34,016 bases of DNA from IMG/VR virus record IMGVR_UViG_2521172734_000003. The stretch is one strand, 5' to 3'. Positions 4,417 through 21,920 of the stretch are shown piece by piece. The stretch's first letter is position 1, and each line of letters starts with the position of its first letter. The stretch comes from a virus (Duplodnaviria; Heunggongvirae; Uroviricota; Caudoviricetes). A model generated the notes under the pieces. That model did no database searches. It had not been told where the DNA came from and was given only the letters and a program-made list of their open reading frames with translations. The translations under genes were made by a program, and so were the position numbers.

Positions 4417-4474
4417 AAAAAGGGCGGCAGAGCAGTCACGGAGTAAAACTGATACCGCCAAACGTCACCAGAAA
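4417..4474 (-). ncRNA. dicF: DicF small regulatory RNA (ftsZ-targeting antisense sRNA) with its intrinsic terminator
   Basis: Reverse complement of 4417-4474 reads TTTCTGGTGACGTTTGGCGGTATCAGTTTTACTCCGTGACTGCTCTGCCGCCCTTTTT, which matches the DicF sequence as I recall it; located between ydfC and dicB as in Qin. Confidence 0.8.
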
Positions 4475-11022: not shown

Positions 11023-11268
11023 ATTCATTACGATATGGGAATTCCCATATCGGGTAAAAACGGTTTGCGGTAAAGCGAGAGTTAAGTAGAATTGCAGCGG
11101 GTGCTTGAGGCTATCTGTCTCAGGCATGAACACCAAAAGGCAGATAGAGAAAAGCCCCAGTTAACATTACGCGTCCTGCAAGACGCTTAACATTAATCTG
11201 AGGCCCAATCTATGTCTCACAAATGTAGGTTAGCCTCTTACGTGCCGAAAGGCAAGGAGAAGCAGGCT

Positions 11269-11424
11269 ATGAAGCAGCAAAAGGCGATGTTAATCGCCCT
11301 GATCGTCATCTGTTTAACCGTCATAGTGACGGCACTGGTAACGAGGAAAGACCTCTGCGAGGTACGAATCCGAACCGGCCAGACGGAGGTCGCTGTCTTC
11401 ACAGCTTACGAACCTGAGGAGTAA
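11269..11424 (+). CDS. hok: Hok/Gef-family type I toxin (51 aa, HokD/RelF-like)
   Basis: MKQQKAMLIALIVICLTVIVTALVTRKDLCEVRIRTGQTEVAVFTAYEPEE from the internal Met of the 70-aa ORF; matches recalled HokD; the in-frame upstream extension is probably leader/mok-like, not Hok. Confidence 0.85.
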   Translation: MKQQKAMLIALIVICLTVIVTALVTRKDLCEVRIRTGQTEVAVFTAYEPEE

Positions 11425-15801: not shown

Positions 15802-15877
15802 GGCCCTTTAGCTCAGTGGTGAGAGCGAGCGACTCATAATCGCCAGGTCGCTGGTTCAAATCCAGCAAGGGCCACCA
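15802..15877 (+). tRNA. tRNA, anticodon CAT (Ile2/lysidine-type, ileZ-like; Met not excluded)
   Basis: Hand-folded cloverleaf: acceptor GGCCCTT/AAGGGCC, D-arm GCTC-AGTGGTGA-GAGC, anticodon loop CTCATAA, T-arm GCTGG-TTCAAAT-CCAGC, 3' CCA encoded. Confidence 0.8.
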
Positions 15878-15884
15878 TCACATA

Positions 15885-15961
15885 CCGCCATTAGCTCATC
15901 AGGAAAGAGCGCCAGCCTTCGAAGCTGGCTGCGCGGGGTTCAAGTCCCCGATGGCGGTCCA
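15885..15961 (+). tRNA. tRNA-Arg, anticodon TCG (argN-like)
   Basis: Acceptor CCGCCAT/ATGGCGG, anticodon stem CCAGC/GCTGG with loop CTTCGAA, T-arm CGGGG-TTCAAGT-CCCCG, CCA encoded. Confidence 0.75.
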
Positions 15962-15974
15962 TTATCTGCATCAT

Positions 15975-16051
15975 GCGTTGTTAGCTCAGCCGGACAGAGC
16001 AATTGCCTTCTAAGCAATCGGTCACTGGTTCGAATCCAGTACAACGCGCCA
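15975..16051 (+). tRNA. tRNA-Arg, anticodon TCT (argO/argU-like)
   Basis: Acceptor GCGTTGT/ACAACGC, D-arm GCTCAGCCGGACAGAGC, anticodon loop CTTCTAA, T-arm CTGG-TTCGAAT-CCAG, CCA encoded; closely resembles recalled argU. Confidence 0.85.
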
Positions 16052-16091: not shown

Positions 16092-16539
16092 AAATGTCTC
16101 ACAATTCAGACGGTTGACAGTTGTCTGGTTTGCGGGGAGTTTGTTAAAAGAAACTGGCATGGTGAATCCCCCTGTGCGGAGGGGCAATCAGCGAGTAGGT
16201 ATATGGGATAATCGCGGATTCAGGTGCTGGTACTGAATTCACCGGGAGGCACCCGGCACCATGCAATGGCACATAGCGCCACTCTCCAGCCCCTCTCCGG
16301 AGGGGCTTTCTTATGGACAAAAAAATCCCGCGCAGGGAGACGCGGGCGGCAAGGAATAAACAACAAAACGTGAAGTAATATTTCAGCTGGCGAATAATAT
16401 CCGACAGTAATCACTCTGCGCAATAGCGCGGCCTTTTCGTATTGCGGGCTATTGTCTCTCTTCTGCCATTGTCCTGTAGCTTCCGGACTTCAGCCCGCTC
16501 CTCATTTTACTCACAATATTATCCCGGCCGGGAGGATTC

Positions 16540-18551: not shown

Positions 18552-18767
18552 ATGTACCAGATGGAAAAAATCACAACAGGTGTGTCATACACCACGTCAG
18601 CGGTGGGAACGGGCTACTGGTTCCTGCAGTTGCTGGACAGGGTTTCCCCGTCTCAGTGGGCGGCAATAGGCGTGCTGGGGAGTCTGCTGTTTGGGCTGCT
18701 GACATATCTGACTAACCTGTATTTCAAAATCAGAGAGGACCGTCGTAAGGCGGCGCGGGGGGAGTAA
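18552..18767 (+). CDS. S: Class II holin / pinholin (S21-like) with dual-start motif MYQM (antiholin from 18552, holin from 18561)
   Basis: 71-aa product [71 protein letters not shown] matches the recalled S21 family; pairs with a SAR endolysin. Confidence 0.85.
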
Positions 18768-18771
18768 AGCG

Positions 18772-19578
18772 ATGAAGAAAAAATACGAACTGGGTGTTAA
18801 AGGGATAAATAATTATCCGGATAAGATTACTGTTACTGTGGCACTGGAAATTGGTGGGTATCCGTCACTGTTGTTGCCAGATGTGGCGATTAGTCTTGAC
18901 CGTACTGAAGGTGCCACGCTGGAGTTTTACGAAGCTGAGGCGAAAAAGCAGGCGAAGCAGTTTTTCATGGATGTTGCTGCCGGGTTATGTGAAGGGAACG
19001 AACCGTTGCCGGAAAAGCGCCCCATAATTTTAGAGGCGCAGGATGTGTTGATAACCTACAAAGGAAAGCTACCGGGAAGAATTACTGGTTCTCTGAAGAT
19101 GCCGCCGTCAACACTGCGGTCAGAAAAAGAGGCGTCTTGTCTGCAGTCTGAGTACTCCATTACGGTTAAAAGTGCCGGAGAGGAAGGAAATAAACGTTAT
19201 TTTATTGCGTCTGCACCTGATAAAGATCAGGAATGGGAGTGTAACCGGCCATCCTTTGTTGTATACGGAGATGGCGGGAAAATAACCATCTCAGAAAATG
19301 GGAAATTAACACCGCCATCGCACCAGCATAGTGAGGCGCTCATTGAATTTGCCATTGATTACCTGAAGAACAATAAAAAGCAGGGGCTGATGAAGCGCAT
19401 TGGTCGTTGCATGGGATATCTGCAGGTAGCAGCTGAGATTGAAATGATGGCCAGTGGTGCTGACAATGATGCAGTTGTGCTGGAGGCTCTTCTGCGTGAT
19501 TTTGATAATACGCCCTTTAAGAAAGCACCTGTTGACTGGATGCAGCCGGGGATGACTTATCTGAAAGGGCGTATATAA
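18772..19578 (+). CDS. Hypothetical soluble protein (268 aa) inserted between holin and endolysin
   Basis: ORF starting 5 nt after the holin stop; no TM segment, no motif I recognise. Confidence 0.6.
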   Translation: MKKKYELGVKGINNYPDKITVTVALEIGGYPSLLLPDVAISLDRTEGATLEFYEAEAKKQAKQFFMDVAAGLCEGNEPLPEKRPIILEAQDVLITYKGKLPGRITGSLKMPPSTLRSEKEASCLQSEYSITVKSAGEEGNKRYFIASAPDKDQEWECNRPSFVVYGDGGKITISENGKLTPPSHQHSEALIEFAIDYLKNNKKQGLMKRIGRCMGYLQVAAEIEMMASGADNDAVVLEALLRDFDNTPFKKAPVDWMQPGMTYLKGRI

Positions 19579-19587
19579 GGTGGCTCG

Positions 19588-19902
19588 TTATCTGTTGCTG
19601 GATAATCGACTGAAGATGCGTTCTTTTTGTGTTTTTGCGTAATGATTGTCCCACTCACAATCAAGGTAGCTTAATTCTTCATTCAACCAGTTATTTATAT
19701 TGGTCTTAATACGCATAAGCATGGGCTGTGTTAATGCTCTGGCGATAATGCCGAGAGTCACAGGTGTGAGATGTCCATACGGCTCAGCCTGAATGGATTT
19801 TACTGCATCGTGTTCTTGTGGGAGGAGTAAGAGGCACTCTGATTTTACCCGCTCATTTATGGCTTGCAGGCATAAATCATAATTATGTTGATCGTTATGC
19901 AT
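19588..19902 (-). CDS. Hypothetical protein (104 aa), convergent with the 268-aa gene, own upstream region
   Basis: Minus-strand ORF with GAGGA SD; 24-bp inverted repeat CTGAAATtgtcagatatATTTCAG (19916-19939) immediately upstream. Confidence 0.5.
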   Translation of the reverse strand: MHNDQHNYDLCLQAINERVKSECLLLLPQEHDAVKSIQAEPYGHLTPVTLGIIARALTQPMLMRIKTNINNWLNEELSYLDCEWDNHYAKTQKERIFSRLSSNR

Positions 19903-20030: not shown

Positions 20031-20564
20031 ATGAACACCAAAATCAAATATGGCCTGTCGGCTGCCGTTCTGGCGTTGATTGCCATCGGTGCGCCTGCGC
20101 CTGATATTCTCGACCAGTTTCTGGATGAAAAAGAAGGTAACCACACAACGGCATACCGTGATGGTGCGGGTATCTGGACCATCTGCCGCGGTGCCACAAT
20201 GGTGGATGGTAAACCTGTTATTCCGGGCATGAAACTGTCGAAGGAAAAATGCGACCAGGTTAATGCCATTGAACGGGATAAGGCGCTGGCATGGGTGGAG
20301 CGCAATATTAAAGTTCCACTGACCGAACCACAGAAAGCGGGTATAGCGTCATTCTGTCCCTATAACATTGGCCCCGGTAAGTGTTTCCCGTCGACGTTTT
20401 ATAAGCGGCTGAATGCTGGTGACCGCAGGGGAGCGTGTGAGGCGATTCGCTGGTGGATTAAGGACGGTGGCAGAGACTGCCGTATCCGCTCAAATAACTG
20501 TTATGGTCAGGTATCCCGTCGTGACCAGGAGAGCGCGCTGGCGTGCTGGGGAATCGACAGATAA
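20031..20564 (+). CDS. R: SAR endolysin, T4-lysozyme-like muramidase (GH24) with N-terminal signal-anchor-release domain
   Basis: N-terminal KYGLSAAVLALIAIGAPA weakly hydrophobic segment; catalytic E-x8-D-x5-T (EGNHTTAYRDGAGIWTICRG); resembles recalled R21/P1 Lyz. Confidence 0.85.
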   Translation: MNTKIKYGLSAAVLALIAIGAPAPDILDQFLDEKEGNHTTAYRDGAGIWTICRGATMVDGKPVIPGMKLSKEKCDQVNAIERDKALAWVERNIKVPLTEPQKAGIASFCPYNIGPGKCFPSTFYKRLNAGDRRGACEAIRWWIKDGGRDCRIRSNNCYGQVSRRDQESALACWGIDR

Positions 20565-20658
20565 GCAGAATATTTTGCTGAAAAATAAGGCATGGCCACG
20601 CGGGCGGATAACACGAAATCCTGCGAACTGGCGAAACGTAAGTGAATAAAAGTAAAAA

Positions 20659-20693
20659 CCCCGTTTGTTGGCAGCAAGCGGGGTTTTGTTTTT
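20659..20693 (+). terminator. Terminator-like hairpin downstream of R
   Basis: CCCCG-(15 nt)-CGGGG followed by TTTTGTTTTT; long loop, so strength uncertain. Confidence 0.45.
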
Positions 20694-20719
20694 ATGGCAG
20701 TAAGCTATGGGAGGCTGCC

Positions 20720-20854
20720 TTGATTGATTTTAGCAAACTGATTAGGGAGTTGCGACTCATGATTAGTCAATTACCAAACTGGAAATTTTTGCTGGTCTGG
20801 AGCATCCCTTTTTTATGGGTAGTATCCCAGTTAATTGTGGCAATTAAGGGGTAG
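20720..20854 (+). CDS. Small hydrophobic ORF 1 (44 aa from TTG 20720, or 31 aa from ATG 20759): ...MISQLPNWKFLLVWSIPFLWVVSQLIVAIKG
   Basis: GGGAGG SD 5 nt upstream of TTG; one predicted TM helix. Confidence 0.4.
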   Translation: MIDFSKLIRELRLMISQLPNWKFLLVWSIPFLWVVSQLIVAIKG

Positions 20855-20856
20855 CT

Positions 20857-20988
20857 ATGTCAGACAAACTCATAACGCCGGCAAAGGTCCTGTGTGTGAT
20901 TGTCGGTATTTCATTTTCACTAATGCTGGTTGCTCTTTTTCTGTCCCTCGCCTGGGTGATGTTGTCTTCGTCGGGGCTGCTGGGGTGA
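20857..20988 (+). CDS. Small hydrophobic ORF 2 (43 aa) MSDKLITPAKVLCVIVGISFSLMLVALFLSLAWVMLSSSGLLG
   Basis: AAGGGG SD 6 nt upstream of ATG; starts 3 nt after ORF 1 stop; one TM helix. Confidence 0.45.
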   Translation: MSDKLITPAKVLCVIVGISFSLMLVALFLSLAWVMLSSSGLLG

Positions 20989-20990
20989 CA

Positions 20991-21107
20991 GTGACTGATG
21001 ACATCAGCAGAGCGCTGGCTTTTGCTATTAAGTGGGTGGCTGTTGGTATTGCTGTGTCTCCGATGCTATATGGGCTGGCAAAACTGGTCATTGCGCTGAA
21101 ATCGTGA
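20991..21107 (+). CDS. Small hydrophobic ORF 3 (about 38 aa, GTG start) ...ISRALAFAIKWVAVGIAVSPMLYGLAKLVIALKS
   Basis: GTG 3 nt after ORF 2 stop; one TM helix; start codon uncertain. Confidence 0.35.
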   Translation: MTDDISRALAFAIKWVAVGIAVSPMLYGLAKLVIALKS

Positions 21108-21118
21108 ACTTTAAAAAG

Positions 21119-21205
21119 ATGAGTGCTGAACTTATTCGGGCAATGGCATTTGCCATTCGTATTGTGGCCATTGCTGTTCTGGTCTGGGCAATCCGTTGGT
21201 GGTGA
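21119..21205 (+). CDS. Small hydrophobic ORF 4 (28 aa) [28 protein letters not shown]
   Basis: Stop TGA ends 1 nt before the Rz ATG; poor SD, so least certain of the four. Confidence 0.3.
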
Positions 21206-21206
21206 T

Positions 21207-21674
21207 ATGAACCGTGTTCTGTGTGTGGTGATTATTGTCATGCTGGTGGCCTGTGGTGCGCTTAGTCTGGGGCTGAATCATTACCGTGATAACGCCATTA
21301 CCTACAAAGCCCAGCGCGACAAAAATGTCAGAGAACTGAAGCTGGCGAACGCGGCAATTACTGACATGCAGATGCGTCAGCGTGATGTTGCTGCGCTCGA
21401 TGCAAAATACTCGAGGGAATTAGCCGATGCGAGAGCTGAAAATGAAACTCTTCGCGCTGACGTTGCCGCTGGTCGTAAGCGCCTGCGTATCAACGCCACC
21501 TGTCCAGGTCCCGTGCGTGAAGCCACCGGCACCGCCCGCGTGGATAATGCAACCGGCCCCCGACTGGCAGACACCGCTGAACGGGATTATTTCACCCTCA
21601 GAGAGCGGCTGATGACGATGCACAAGCAACTGGAAGGGGCGCAGGAATATATCCGTACTCAGTGCCTGAAATAA
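21207..21674 (+). CDS. Rz: Spanin inner-membrane subunit Rz (i-spanin)
   Basis: 155 aa; N-terminal TM helix then coiled-coil periplasmic domain; Rz1 embedded in +1 frame. Confidence 0.85.
21442..21612 (+). CDS. Rz1: Spanin outer-membrane lipoprotein subunit Rz1 (o-spanin), embedded within Rz
   Basis: [15 protein letters not shown] lipobox followed by a Pro-rich mature region; entirely inside the Rz reading frame. Confidence 0.8.
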
Positions 21675-21920
21675 GTTTTGTTGATGCGCCGTATCGTCGC
21701 TGTATTCCCTCATTAACAGAGACCGCAGCCCGACAGGGAGACTCCTCTGCGCGAGTGTGCGGGGATAATCAAAAACGATACACACCGGGGTTTACCGCGT
21801 TAACGGAGCGCGGCGTTGTCCCCTCATAGTCGCCTGTCCGGTGCGATGGTGGAAGAAATCGGACTACATTGAAAATGATAACCATTATCGTTTTTGCGGG
21901 TCCTCCTGGTGGGGTGGGCC

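What the first reader, a model, noticed from the sequence alone, without database searches (positions are those of the whole stretch)
20659..21205. Cluster of four small hydrophobic ORFs between endolysin and Rz
R and Rz are normally adjacent. Here about 640 bp separates them, holding a terminator-like hairpin followed by four consecutive, nearly abutting small ORFs (44/31, 43, about 38 and 28 aa), each a single predicted TM helix, in three frames, the last ending 1 nt before the Rz start codon. Two have good Shine-Dalgarno sequences. Possible roles: extra lysis-timing regulators, small membrane toxins, or remnants of a degraded insert.
Basis: seen in the sequence. Interest (0 to 1): 0.55.

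Follow-up and report, generated by a model that had tools for sequence, protein, structure and literature searches.

The report
Small membrane-peptide genes before spanin Rz
The gap between the endolysin and spanin genes of this E. coli prophage holds four real, selection-maintained genes for tiny membrane peptides of unknown function. They belong to mobile cassette families that recur at this spot in many enterobacterial phages, including Shiga-toxin phages.

Summary
Window 20565-21206 (identical to E. coli 55989) contains a strong intrinsic-terminator hairpin and four same-strand hydrophobic ORFs in three frames, the last ending 1 nt before Rz. Chance gives about 0.3 such ORFs.

- **They are coding.** Relatives in E. 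coli, Salmonella, Citrobacter and Cronobacter show codon-structured conservation: dN/dS is about 0.1-0.35 in frame and about 1 or more in shifted frames.
- **They fall into three narrow families of unknown function.** These match PHROGs 6632, 4906 and 1115/3246/4493.
- **ORF3 and ORF4 are paralogs.** Both are N-terminally truncated copies of a 38-62-aa family.
- **ORF1 is a chimera; ORF2 is full length.**
- **The array is a recombinational stack of cassettes.** The cassettes sit mostly between an endolysin (five enzyme types) and a spanin, and occasionally among tail genes.
- **A hairpin travels with the first cassette.** It is a bidirectional terminator and keeps its structure through compensatory changes. 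A position-conserved minus-strand promoter-like site predicts a 75-100-nt antisense RNA over the ribosome-binding site. This RNA is untested.

Best reading: late-expressed, toxin-like inner-membrane peptides that modulate lysis. The coding status is shown; the function is inferred. The finding is moderately interesting and is a new variant of a known kind.

The parts
20031..20564 (+). R: SAR-type phage lysozyme (endolysin), left border of the slot
   Evidence: Pfam PF00959, E = 2.8e-25. RefSeq annotates it as 'lysozyme'.
20565..20653 (+). Conserved 3' untranslated stretch after R. It includes a mini-hairpin, GGAT-AACACGAA-ATCC, at 20606-20621.
   Evidence: Nearly invariant across E. coli variants of the slot, while the sequence just upstream of it varies. 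It is kept even where the cargo is an antirepressor gene (query 1-86).
20655..20687 (.). Intrinsic-terminator hairpin with an A-run upstream and a T-run downstream, so it is bidirectional
   Evidence: Terminator scan. Folding energy -25.2 kcal/mol, z = -5.5. Among 18 diverse cassettes, 6 of 12 pairs show compensatory changes. The hairpin accompanies the first small ORF in 81 of 124 loci, including the tail-gene contexts where one was found (L190, L202-type, L208; none was detected in L188).
20696..20719 (+). ORF1 leader: stem GGCAG/CTGCC with the Shine-Dalgarno GGGAGG (20709-20714) in its loop
   Evidence: Read from the sequence. The complementary stem-loop appears in the fold of the minus strand.
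20720..20854 (+). ORF1, 44 aa from TTG (31 aa from ATG 20759). It is a chimera: the N-terminal 26 codons are family F1 (phrog_6632) and the rest is a different TM tail.
   Evidence: phrog_6632, E = 1.8e-13. Homologs in Salmonella phage SPN3UB, CP-1639 and Rac-SA53 start with GTG at the same codon. Family F1 has dN/dS 0.08-0.16, P < 0.001. The tail against L018 gives dN/dS 0.14, P < 0.001. The tail also exists as a separate 31-aa ORF whose start overlaps the stop of ant. An internal stop occurs in L004 and a frameshift in L083.
20727..20755 (-). Candidate antisense promoter: -10 TAAAAT (reverse complement of 20727-20732), 17-nt spacer, weak -35 TCGCAA (reverse complement of 20750-20755)
   Evidence: My own consensus scan gave 8 of 12 matches. 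The same geometry, with better matches (9-10 of 12), is seen in all F3-type cassettes examined. This is a prediction only.
20642..20722 (-). Predicted antisense RNA of about 75 nt, covering the ORF1 start and Shine-Dalgarno and ending at the hairpin and U-run
   Evidence: The fold shows a 5' stem-loop that presents the anti-Shine-Dalgarno CCUCCC, followed by a terminator; -21.9 kcal/mol, z = -3.5. No Rfam family matches. Not tested experimentally.
20857..20988 (+). ORF2, 43 aa, full-length member of family F2 (phrog_4906), with Shine-Dalgarno AAGGGG at 20846-20851
   Evidence: phrog_4906, E = 4.5e-21. 219 homologs, found in E. coli, Shigella, Citrobacter and Cronobacter. dN/dS is 0.1-0.35 with P <= 0.005 in divergent pairs, against 0.76 and 1.46 in the shifted frames.
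20985..21107 (+). ORF3, 40 aa from GTG 20985 (GTGA overlap with the ORF2 stop). It is a 5'-truncated copy of family F3 and lacks the native ...KYKRILLRLT-MKNGLELKAP N-terminus.
   Evidence: phrog_3246 and phrog_1115, E = 1e-24 to 1e-27. Full-length relatives are 48-60 aa. The junction is seen in alignment A3. dN/dS is 0.08-0.14 against Salmonella, P <= 0.0005. ORF3 is frameshifted in phage phiSTEC1589-Stx1c.
21119..21205 (+). ORF4, 28 aa, a short paralog of ORF3 (F3 family, RWW subtype; phrog_4493). Its last codons (RWW, stop) contain the Rz Shine-Dalgarno GGTGGTGA.
   Evidence: phrog_4493, E = 3.8e-6. A profile search links ORF3- and ORF4-type proteins through intermediates. The core against L008 gives dN/dS 0.14, P = 0.001.
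21207..21674 (+). Rz i-spanin, right border of the slot, with the embedded Rz1 o-spanin ORF at 21427-21612
   Evidence: PF03245, E = 2e-51. The embedded ORF has the lipobox-like sequence LVVSAC.

Best explanation
**What it is (shown).** The R-Rz spacer is a recombinational stack of small mobile gene cassettes. It encodes members of three narrow enterobacterial-phage families of single-pass membrane peptides:
- F1 is ORF1, here a chimera.
- F2 is ORF2, full length.
- F3 is ORF3 and ORF4, both N-terminally truncated paralogs.

All four reading frames derive from sequence under purifying selection. All are kept translatable by Shine-Dalgarno sequences or by start/stop coupling. The last one runs into the ribosome-binding site of Rz.

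**How it most likely works (inferred).**
- The genes lie in the late operon, co-oriented with it, with no promoter of their own and directly behind an intrinsic terminator.
- They would therefore be made only when Q-antiterminated RNA polymerase reads through, together with holin, endolysin and spanin.
- As very hydrophobic inner-membrane peptides they probably act as accessory, toxin-like lysis factors. They would perturb or depolarise the membrane, or bind other lysis transmembrane domains, and so tune when the pinholin fires and the SAR endolysin is released. They also pass ribosomes on to Rz.
- A short antisense RNA, predicted to start inside the first ORF and end at the bidirectional hairpin, would keep the first cassette silent in the lysogen.
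For: **Coding status.**
- In-frame against shifted-frame dN/dS: ORF3 0.12 against 0.96 and 4.67; ORF2 0.39 against 0.76 and 1.46.
- Cross-genus pairs: F3 0.08-0.14 and F2 0.1-0.35, with permutation P <= 0.005.
- F1 0.08-0.16.
- ORF1 tail and ORF4 core 0.14.

**Families.**
- PHROG matches.
- Homologs only in Enterobacteriaceae.
- A profile search of 1.84 billion representatives finds just 26 clusters. These join ORF3- and ORF4-type proteins.

**Cassette shuffling at ORF boundaries**.

**Position.** In 124 loci the upstream neighbour is one of the following:
- an endolysin of one of five types: PF00959, GH108, M15_4, GH19 and an unassigned type;
- an antirepressor.

The downstream neighbour is usually Rz (53 loci) or a DUF2514 or other spanin-like protein.

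**Coupling.**
- GTGA overlap between ORF2 and ORF3.
- 1 nt between ORF4 and Rz.
- ATGA overlaps in relatives.

**Hairpin.** Strong and conserved by compensatory change. It is linked to the first ORF in lysis contexts and in most non-lysis contexts (not detected in L188).

**Antisense promoter-like site.** It sits at a fixed position in every F3 lineage examined, and the Tyr codon inside it is always TAT. The predicted RNAs fold as an anti-Shine-Dalgarno stem-loop plus a terminator.

**Foreign composition.** GC is 46% in the spacer, against 53% in R and 55% in Rz.

**Precedent.** hokW-sokW of Stx phage Sp5 is a peptide toxin with an antisense RNA. It brings forward growth arrest and doubles phage release (PMC8621323).
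Against: - There are no expression data and no functional data for any member.
- F3 cassettes also occur between tail or baseplate genes and next to a PRD1-type coat gene. They are therefore not strictly lysis-linked.
- The cassettes occur with five endolysin types and several holin types, which argues against one specific lysis partner.
- ORF3 and ORF4 in this window lack the family's N-terminus and have no Shine-Dalgarno. The same layout is decaying in one phage. These two copies may be inert.
- The antisense promoter lies in conserved coding sequence, so its conservation could be a by-product. In the window it scores only 8 of 12.
- No Hfq-bound sRNA was reported in the R-Rz gaps of Sakai Sp4 or Sp10.
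- There is no similarity to any known toxin, holin, antiholin, releasin or defence protein.
Confidence: 0.4

Rival explanations
1. They are morons in the classical sense: cargo genes that benefit the lysogen. For example, small inner-membrane proteins could block DNA entry of superinfecting phages. They would have no role in lysis, and the R-Rz junction would simply be a tolerated insertion and recombination site.
For: - The cassettes move as units, and the same slot carries an unrelated antirepressor gene in many Stx phages.
- F3 and F1 cassettes also lie in tail or baseplate regions, and in Rac-SA53 beside the ant region.
- GC content is lower than in the flanks.
- Known moron products such as HK97 gp15 are small membrane exclusion proteins (my own knowledge).
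Against: - No plus-strand promoter was found between the hairpin and the ORFs.
- The terminator lies upstream of the ORFs, not downstream.
- The genes are always co-oriented with, and tightly coupled to, late genes. This predicts silence in the lysogen.
- There is no match to PADLOC defence models.
Confidence: 0.25
2. They are stand-alone type I toxin-antitoxin modules: a peptide toxin plus a cis-antisense RNA. Their main role would be to stabilise the prophage or to abort infection, and they merely hitch-hike in late operons.
For: - The peptides are small and hydrophobic.
- The bidirectional terminator is always attached at a fixed distance.
- The minus-strand promoter-like site is conserved in position.
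- The predicted antisense RNAs have an anti-Shine-Dalgarno loop.
Against: - The toxin has no promoter of its own and depends on late transcription.
- F2 has no hairpin or antisense signal.
- The prophage already carries a canonical hok/sok locus (sok at 11099-11274).
- There are no Pfam or Rfam hits to known type I families.
- The antisense signal may be a by-product of coding conservation.
Confidence: 0.15
3. In this particular window the array is largely evolutionary debris. ORF2, and perhaps ORF1, are functional. ORF3 and ORF4 are inert truncated leftovers of recombination whose open frames persist only because the arrangement is young.
For: - ORF3 has lost its native start, Shine-Dalgarno and about 20 N-terminal residues at a junction at ACTGATGAC.
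- ORF4 lacks the MKNGLE.DAP segment that full-length relatives have.
- Neither has a Shine-Dalgarno.
- In phiSTEC1589-Stx1c, ORF3 is frameshifted and ORF4 is partly deleted.
- ORF1 carries a stop in L004 and a frameshift in L083.
- Copies of the four-ORF layout are nearly identical, so they say little about selection.
Against: - The four-ORF layout is intact in at least 587 complete genomes at 80% coverage or more.
- The starts are placed for termination-reinitiation: GTGA for ORF3, and 11 nt after the ORF3 stop for ORF4.
- Short 'MSA(E/D)(L/F)IRA...' forms recur with both C-terminal types in other phages. In those cases the short form's start overlaps the stop of an upstream 65-aa ORF (ATGA).
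- ORF4 provides the Rz ribosome-binding context.
Confidence: 0.35
4. Their main job is mechanical. Translated spacer ORFs would restore translational coupling into Rz after cargo and a terminator were inserted between R and Rz, which overlap by 4 nt in the ancestral arrangement. The peptide sequences themselves would matter little.
For: - R and Rz overlap in K-12 DLP12 and Qin.
- In every variant, the last small ORF stops 1-12 nt before the Rz start.
- The RWW-stop codons overlap the Rz Shine-Dalgarno.
Against: - Purifying selection acts on the amino-acid sequence.
- The RWW end, or a variant such as KWW in L190, is kept where no Rz follows.
- The families are kept next to unrelated downstream genes.
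Confidence: 0.1

Closest known systems
hokW-sokW type I toxin-antitoxin of Stx2 prophage Sp5 (Hok/Sok family)
   Same: - It is a small hydrophobic inner-membrane peptide encoded in a lambdoid Stx prophage.
- It is held in check by a short cis-encoded antisense RNA.
- It is produced on induction, speeds growth arrest and raises phage release (PMC8621323).
- The cassettes here have a comparable predicted layout: peptide ORF, antisense promoter-like site and terminator.
   Different: - There is no sequence similarity, and there is no Pfam Hok hit.
- The genes here have no promoter of their own and sit inside the late operon between R and Rz.
- The antisense RNA is only predicted.
- This prophage also carries a separate genuine sok/hok locus elsewhere.
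Antiholins and holin modulators (lambda S107, phage 21 S71, P1 LydB, T4 RI)
   Same: - They are small membrane proteins encoded in or beside the lysis cassette that set lysis time.
- F3 has two in-frame starts. The longer form adds a basic N-terminus and the shorter one has its own conserved GAGG Shine-Dalgarno. This recalls dual-start holin/antiholin pairs.
   Different: - These are separate genes placed after the endolysin, not alternative products of the holin gene.
- There is no homology to any holin family.
- They are found with several unrelated holin and endolysin types.
- The function is untested.
Phage Mu gp25 'releasin' (DUF2730)
   Same: It is an accessory, non-holin membrane-anchored lysis protein encoded within a few genes of a SAR endolysin and the spanins (PMC9239132).
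   Different: - gp25 is 99 aa with a 73-aa cytoplasmic domain and N-out topology, and it occurs only in transposable phages.
- The peptides here are 28-62 aa with almost no soluble part.
- There is no DUF2730 match.
Morons of lambdoid phages (for example HK97 gp15, lambda bor and lom)
   Same: - They are extra genes inserted between conserved late genes, with deviating GC content, exchanged as units between phages.
- Some encode small membrane proteins.
   Different: - Classical morons have their own promoter upstream and a terminator downstream, and are expressed from the prophage.
- Here the terminator is upstream, no promoter was found, and the genes are translationally coupled to late genes.

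Membership tests
PHROG families 6632 (ORF1), 4906 (ORF2), 1115/3246/4493 (ORF3, ORF4); all of unknown function | Significant match to the family profile | tested here: met
   E-values: 1.8e-13 (ORF1), 4.5e-21 (ORF2), 1.9e-27 and 1.7e-24 (ORF3), 3.8e-6 (ORF4).
Type I toxin-antitoxin system | Small hydrophobic, membrane-targeted peptide (under about 60 aa) | tested here: met
   Peptides of 28-44 aa with GRAVY 0.9-1.6 and one TM-grade segment each.
Type I toxin-antitoxin system | Antisense RNA antitoxin that pairs with the toxin mRNA | tested here: inconclusive
   There is a position-conserved minus-strand promoter-like site plus a bidirectional terminator, and the predicted 75-100-nt RNA covers the Shine-Dalgarno and start. 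There is no transcript evidence, and no Hfq-CRAC peak in the Sakai R-Rz gaps.
Type I toxin-antitoxin system | Homology to a known toxin or antitoxin family (Hok/Sok, Ldr/Rdl, Ibs/Sib, TisB/IstR, ShoB/OhsC, Zor/Orz, DinQ/AgrB) | tested here: not met
   No Pfam, NCBIfam or Rfam match at permissive thresholds.
Type I toxin-antitoxin system | The peptide is toxic when expressed and the RNA neutralises it | not testable with these tools
   This needs expression experiments.
Holin / antiholin | Membrane protein encoded in the lysis cassette | tested here: met
   The ORFs lie between R and Rz in the late operon.
Holin / antiholin | Membership of a described holin family, or being an alternative translation product of the holin gene | tested here: not met
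   No holin Pfam hit. The S21-type holin is a separate gene ending at 18767 (PF04971).
Holin / antiholin | Controls the timing of membrane permeabilisation | not testable with these tools
   This needs lysis curves of deletion and over-expression strains.
Spanin (i-, o- or u-spanin) | A periplasmic domain long enough to span the periplasm, or a lipoprotein signal | tested here: not met
   The peptides have fewer than 10 residues beyond the TM segment and no lipobox. The real Rz and Rz1 follow at 21207 and 21427.
Moron (Juhala/Hendrix sense) | Extra gene between conserved neighbours, with deviating base composition | tested here: met
   The slot is absent from K-12 DLP12 and Qin, where R and Rz overlap. 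GC is 46% against 53-55% in the flanks.
Moron (Juhala/Hendrix sense) | Own promoter upstream and terminator downstream; expressed from the prophage | tested here: not met
   No plus-strand promoter-like site lies between the hairpin and the ORFs, and the terminator is upstream. Expression in the lysogen could not be tested.
Releasin (Mu gp25, DUF2730) | DUF2730 domain: an N-terminal TM segment plus a cytoplasmic domain of about 70 aa | tested here: not met
   No Pfam match, and the peptides are too short.

The most novel reading that the evidence does not exclude
F1 and F3 cassettes would be a previously undescribed class of self-contained genetic module: a bidirectional terminator, a leader hairpin, a peptide ORF ending in RWW, and an antisense promoter embedded in the ORF. 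It would amount to a type-I-toxin-like unit that has no promoter for the toxin and is armed only by phage late antitermination.

The module would spread between unrelated temperate phages and would act as a portable lysis accelerator or timer. F2 would be a second, spanin-proximal partner. In Stx phages this would be an unrecognised layer of control over the timing of lysis and toxin release.
Probability: 0.2. Interest if true: 0.7.

Novelty: new variant of a known kind. Interest (0 to 1): 0.5.

Why it matters
- **Prevalence.** The spacer or parts of it occur in 2068 of 5426 complete E. coli genomes and in more than 300 sequenced phages, most of them Stx-converting.
- **No function known.** All its genes are annotated as 'hypothetical', and I found no paper that discusses them.
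- **Location.** They sit in the operon that decides when the cell bursts. In Stx phages that operon also governs toxin release.
- **Candidate new lysis proteins.** Three small-peptide families are under purifying selection and recur between endolysin and spanin whatever the enzyme type. That makes them candidates for a missing class of accessory lysis proteins.
- **Possible regulatory module.** The terminator-linked cassette with a predicted antisense RNA would, if real, be a compact regulatory module of general interest.
- **Value if they turn out to be plain cargo.** The analysis still gives correct gene models, family definitions and an evolutionary account of a recombination hot spot.

Tried and rejected
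1. **AgvB/AsxR-type anti-sRNAs.** I suspected the conserved stretch after R plus the hairpin was one of them. Those lie in the Q-S moron site and have different sequences (PMC4104026). Rejected.
2. **Rfam.** No hit in the window region at E <= 1. On six related loci the only hits were STnc100 elsewhere and a sub-threshold 'rimP leader' match over the hairpin, at 36 bits against a cut-off of 47. I take the latter as chance.
3. **Protein family libraries.** Pfam, NCBIfam and PADLOC gave nothing for any peptide or for full-length relatives.
4. **K-12 prophages.** Qin and DLP12 have no spacer, so no named K-12 small protein corresponds to these ORFs.
5. **Species-representative genomes.** The scan found one weak hit only.
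6. **First two viral-contig scans.** They returned only near-identical copies and were of little use for selection tests.
7. **Sakai small-ORF Ribo-seq paper.** Its supplement contains none of these peptides. The Enterobacteriaceae microproteome preprint does not mention prophage lysis genes.
8. **Hfq-CRAC sRNA list for Sakai.** EcOnc11 and EcOnc12 looked promising because they lie 5 kb from the anti-sRNA on the antisense strand. They turn out to lie just after Rz, not in the R-Rz gap. Sp4, which has an ORF4-type cassette, has no peak in its gap.
9. **Fragments of the Rz N-terminal TM segment or of holins.** I considered this origin for the peptides. There were only trivial hydrophobic matches.
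10. **RWW ending dictated by the Rz ribosome-binding site.** Rejected, because the motif (or a close variant such as KWW) is kept where no Rz follows.
Full report
**Setting.** The window is a lambdoid prophage. The queried spacer is 100% identical to E. coli 55989 (NC_011748.1 1117251-1117893). The lysis region reads as follows:
- an S21-type holin (PF04971, ending at 18767);
- a DUF1327/YdfR-like ORF;
- a 104-aa ORF on the opposite strand;
- a SAR-type lysozyme R (20031-20564, PF00959);
- a 642-nt spacer;
- Rz (21207-21674, PF03245), with Rz1 embedded at 21427-21612.

- The hairpin at 20655-20687 has 15 pairs and a T-run. It folds at -25.2 kcal/mol, z = -5.5.
- The four ORFs exist.
  - ORF1: TTG 20720 (or ATG 20759) to 20854.
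  - ORF2: 20857-20988.
  - ORF3: GTG 20985 or 20991 to 21107.
  - ORF4: 21119-21205.
- There is 1 nt between the ORF4 stop and the Rz ATG.
- They use three frames, and each has one TM-grade hydrophobic stretch.
- Dinucleotide shuffles give 0.33 such ORFs on average, against 3-4 observed (P about 0.001). The other strand has none.
- ORF1 and ORF2 have good Shine-Dalgarno sequences. ORF3 and ORF4 do not.

It is not.
- Across loci chosen by DNA similarity, pooled dN/dS is 0.12 for ORF3, against 0.96 and 4.67 in the shifted frames. It is 0.39 for ORF2, against 0.76 and 1.46.
- With relatives from Salmonella, Citrobacter and Cronobacter, the ORF3 family has dN/dS 0.08-0.14 and the ORF2 family 0.1-0.35. 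Far fewer codons are changed than when the same substitutions are placed at random (P <= 0.005).
- The ORF1 family has dN/dS 0.08-0.16.
- The ORF1 TM tail and the ORF4 core both give 0.14 (P <= 0.001).
- All four match PHROG families of unknown function, and RefSeq already calls three of them hypothetical proteins.
- These tests show that the sequences come from protein-coding families. They cannot show that each copy in this window is still used.

**Families.**
- *F2 (ORF2)* is a 43-49-aa protein with a nearly invariant N-terminal half, MSDKLITLAKILCVIVGISFSLMLVA, and a variable tail.
- *ORF3 and ORF4 are one family, F3.* A profile search of 1.84 billion representatives found only 26 clusters. 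These include intermediates such as MKNGLEIDAPVSVELMRAVIFAIKVMAVGAVFVPAMYGIARLILAVRWW.
- *Full-length F3* is 38-62 aa: an optional basic extension (xKYKRILLRLT), then MKNGLExDAP, one TM helix, and a C-terminus ALKS or RWW.
- *ORF3 in the window* has lost everything before ...VTDDISR at a recombination joint. It can start only at a GTG that overlaps the ORF2 stop.
- *ORF4 in the window* is the short 'MSAELIRA...' form.
- *F1 (ORF1)* has homologs in Salmonella phage SPN3UB, CP-1639 and Rac-SA53. They start with GTG at the codon of the window's TTG and end in IRWW.
- *The window's ORF1 is a chimera.* It has the F1 N-terminus plus a different TM tail. In antirepressor-bearing relatives that tail is a separate 31-aa ORF whose ATG overlaps the ant stop.
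- None of the families matches Pfam, NCBIfam or PADLOC. All named homologs are 'hypothetical' and enterobacterial.

**The slot is a cassette exchange site.**
- Matches in E. coli genomes break at ORF boundaries (query 1-129, 214-424, 296-424, 546-641).
- Fetched variants include:
  - F1-F2-Rz;
  - F3-F2-Rz;
  - F3(RWW)-Rz;
  - a 65-aa ORF, then short F3, then Rz;
  - F1-Rz;
  - ant-F2-Rz;
  - the window's four-ORF form.
- In phage phiSTEC1589-Stx1c the four-ORF form is decaying: ORF3 is frameshifted and ORF4 is deleted.
- K-12 DLP12 and Qin have no spacer, and R and Rz overlap by 4 nt.
- I surveyed 124 loci. The sample is redundant and was chosen by similarity, so the counts are only indicative.
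- In that survey the gene upstream was a GH108 endolysin (40), a SAR lysozyme (33), an antirepressor (25), an unassigned endolysin-like protein (4), an M15 peptidase (2) or GH19 (1).
- The gene downstream was Rz (53), DUF2514 or another spanin-like protein. In GH108 phages it was a 60-aa lipoprotein followed by the terminase small subunit.
- F3 also occurs after a tail-tube gene, between baseplate gpV and the following baseplate-cluster gene (no Pfam match), and beside a PRD1-type coat gene. F1 occurs in Rac-SA53 next to the ant region.
- The C-terminal RWW is kept in the baseplate contexts, with KWW after the tail-tube gene, where no Rz follows. It is therefore a feature of the proteins, not only of the Rz ribosome-binding site.

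**The hairpin belongs to the cassette.**
- A strong hairpin with an A-run before it and a T-run after it precedes the first F1 or F3 ORF in 81 of 124 loci. These include the tail-tube, baseplate and Rac-SA53 contexts; none was detected in L188. The distance to the ORF is fixed.
- Most of the remaining loci are ant-type, with a different hairpin upstream of ant.
- In 18 diverse copies, 6 of 12 stem pairs show compensatory changes.
- Inside the 5' end of every F3 ORF examined there is a minus-strand promoter-like site at the same position: -35 TAGTCA, TGGTCA, TAGACA or TGGACA, an 18-nt spacer, and -10 TATACT or TATAAT (9-10 of 12).
- F1 cassettes, including the window, have a weaker one: -10 TAAAAT, the reverse complement of 20727-20732.
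- The F3 -10 overlaps a Tyr codon that is TAT in about 12 lineages, although neighbouring synonymous sites vary.
- A transcript from this site would be 75-100 nt, would cover the Shine-Dalgarno and start codon, and would end at the hairpin. The predicted RNAs fold into an anti-Shine-Dalgarno stem-loop plus a terminator.
- This is a prediction. The motif lies in conserved coding sequence, no Rfam family matches, and the published Hfq-CRAC list for Sakai has no peak in the R-Rz gaps I could check.

**Most likely mechanism.**
- *Shown:* these are coding families under selection, they are cassette-like and mobile, they prefer the endolysin/spanin junction, they are tightly coupled to neighbours, and an upstream terminator is conserved by structure.
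- *Inferred:* expression only from the Q-antiterminated late transcript, insertion as single-pass inner-membrane peptides, and an accessory toxin-like effect on the membrane or on other lysis TM domains that shifts the time of pinholin firing and SAR-endolysin release. I also infer hand-over of ribosomes to Rz and possible silencing of the first cassette by an antisense RNA in the lysogen.
- hokW-sokW of prophage Sp5 shows that a peptide toxin with an antisense RNA can bring forward growth arrest and double phage release.
- I put about 0.9 on 'real gene families', about 0.35 that ORF3 and ORF4 here are inert leftovers, about 0.3 on the antisense RNA, and about 0.3-0.4 on a lysis-modulating role.
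- The main rival is that they are ordinary cargo for the lysogen, such as exclusion proteins. The lack of a promoter and the upstream terminator argue against this, but the tail-region copies keep it alive.

**Comparison with known systems.** They work most like type I toxins or antiholin-type modulators, but they are members of neither. No homology was found, the antisense RNA is unproven, and they are not products of the holin gene. They are not spanins, having no periplasmic domain or lipobox, and they are not releasins. They fit 'moron' in being extra, compositionally foreign, exchangeable genes, but not in promoter and terminator layout.

**Novelty and verdict.**
- The ORFs are already in databases as hypothetical proteins, and I found no study of them.
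- New here:
  - corrected gene models;
  - the grouping into three families, with ORF3 and ORF4 as truncated paralogs and ORF1 as a chimera;
  - quantitative evidence for selection;
  - the positional rule;
  - the terminator-linked cassette with a candidate antisense RNA.
- It is a new variant of a known kind, and interest is moderate (0.5).

Noticed in passing
window 11099-11274 (+): Rfam sok antitoxin (RF01794, 120 bits). This prophage carries a canonical hok/sok-type locus in its early region, like hokW-sokW of Sp5.
   Followed up: no
window 21748-21796 (-), within 21675-21858: The stretch just after Rz is 95% identical to the Sakai Sp10 region that holds the Hfq-CRAC peak EcOnc11. EcOnc10 and EcOnc12 have almost the same peak score and look like related copies in Sp12 and Sp9. 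This points to an uncharacterised Hfq-bound sRNA antisense to the late operon.
   Followed up: partly
window 4422-4473 (-); 15802-16051 (+); 16128-16318 (+): DicF RNA, three tRNA genes (Met-CAT by ARAGORN, Arg-TCG, Arg-TCT) and the sRNA STnc100 lie in the Q-S moron region.
   Followed up: no
window 20606-20621 (+): The mini-hairpin GGAT-AACACGAA-ATCC in the 3' UTR of R is invariant across E. coli variants and is also present in Salmonella (AACACAAA loop). It shares the 8-mer GATAACAC with the 5' end of the anti-sRNA AgvB. Its meaning is unknown and the match may be chance.
   Followed up: partly
window 18772-19578 (+) and 19588-19902 (-): There is a 268-aa ORF whose first 100 residues are DUF1327/YdfR-like. 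RefSeq calls the region a truncated YdfR pseudogene. A 104-aa hypothetical gene lies on the opposite strand between holin and endolysin. No family match was found for it.
   Followed up: no
L183 3140-3322; L177-L179; about 35 GH108-type loci among L209-L288: In phages with a GH108 endolysin, the lysis block is holin, holin, endolysin, F3, F2 and then a 60-aa lipoprotein (lipobox LVGC). The terminase small subunit or an unrelated small gene follows directly. No Rz-like i-spanin is visible. It is unclear whether these phages lack a canonical spanin.
   Followed up: partly
L003-L280 F3 cassettes (for example L007 1356-1400): F3 genes have two in-frame starts. The upstream ATG or GTG has a strong Shine-Dalgarno and adds a basic extension, KYKRILLRLT. 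The MKNG start has its own invariant GAGG 6 nt upstream. In some lineages the upstream start is lost (ACG in L005). This may be a dual-start arrangement.
   Followed up: partly
L208 2560-2739; L188 3267-3413: Further unrelated-looking small TM ORFs also end in RWW: MTGWRFLMAWSVFLLFGLSSLISATRWW and ...YGVAGWLVISAVRWW. This suggests a wider set of RWW-tailed phage membrane peptides.
   Followed up: no
window 20952 (+): RefSeq's 51-aa model for ORF3 (WP_042004856.1) starts at a CTG codon in this genome. The model seems to be carried over by protein homology rather than supported by a start signal.
   Followed up: partly
L180 1653-1860 (+): The Salmonella prophage that carries an F3-Rz cassette also has STnc100 upstream of its holin, as in the window.
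   Followed up: no
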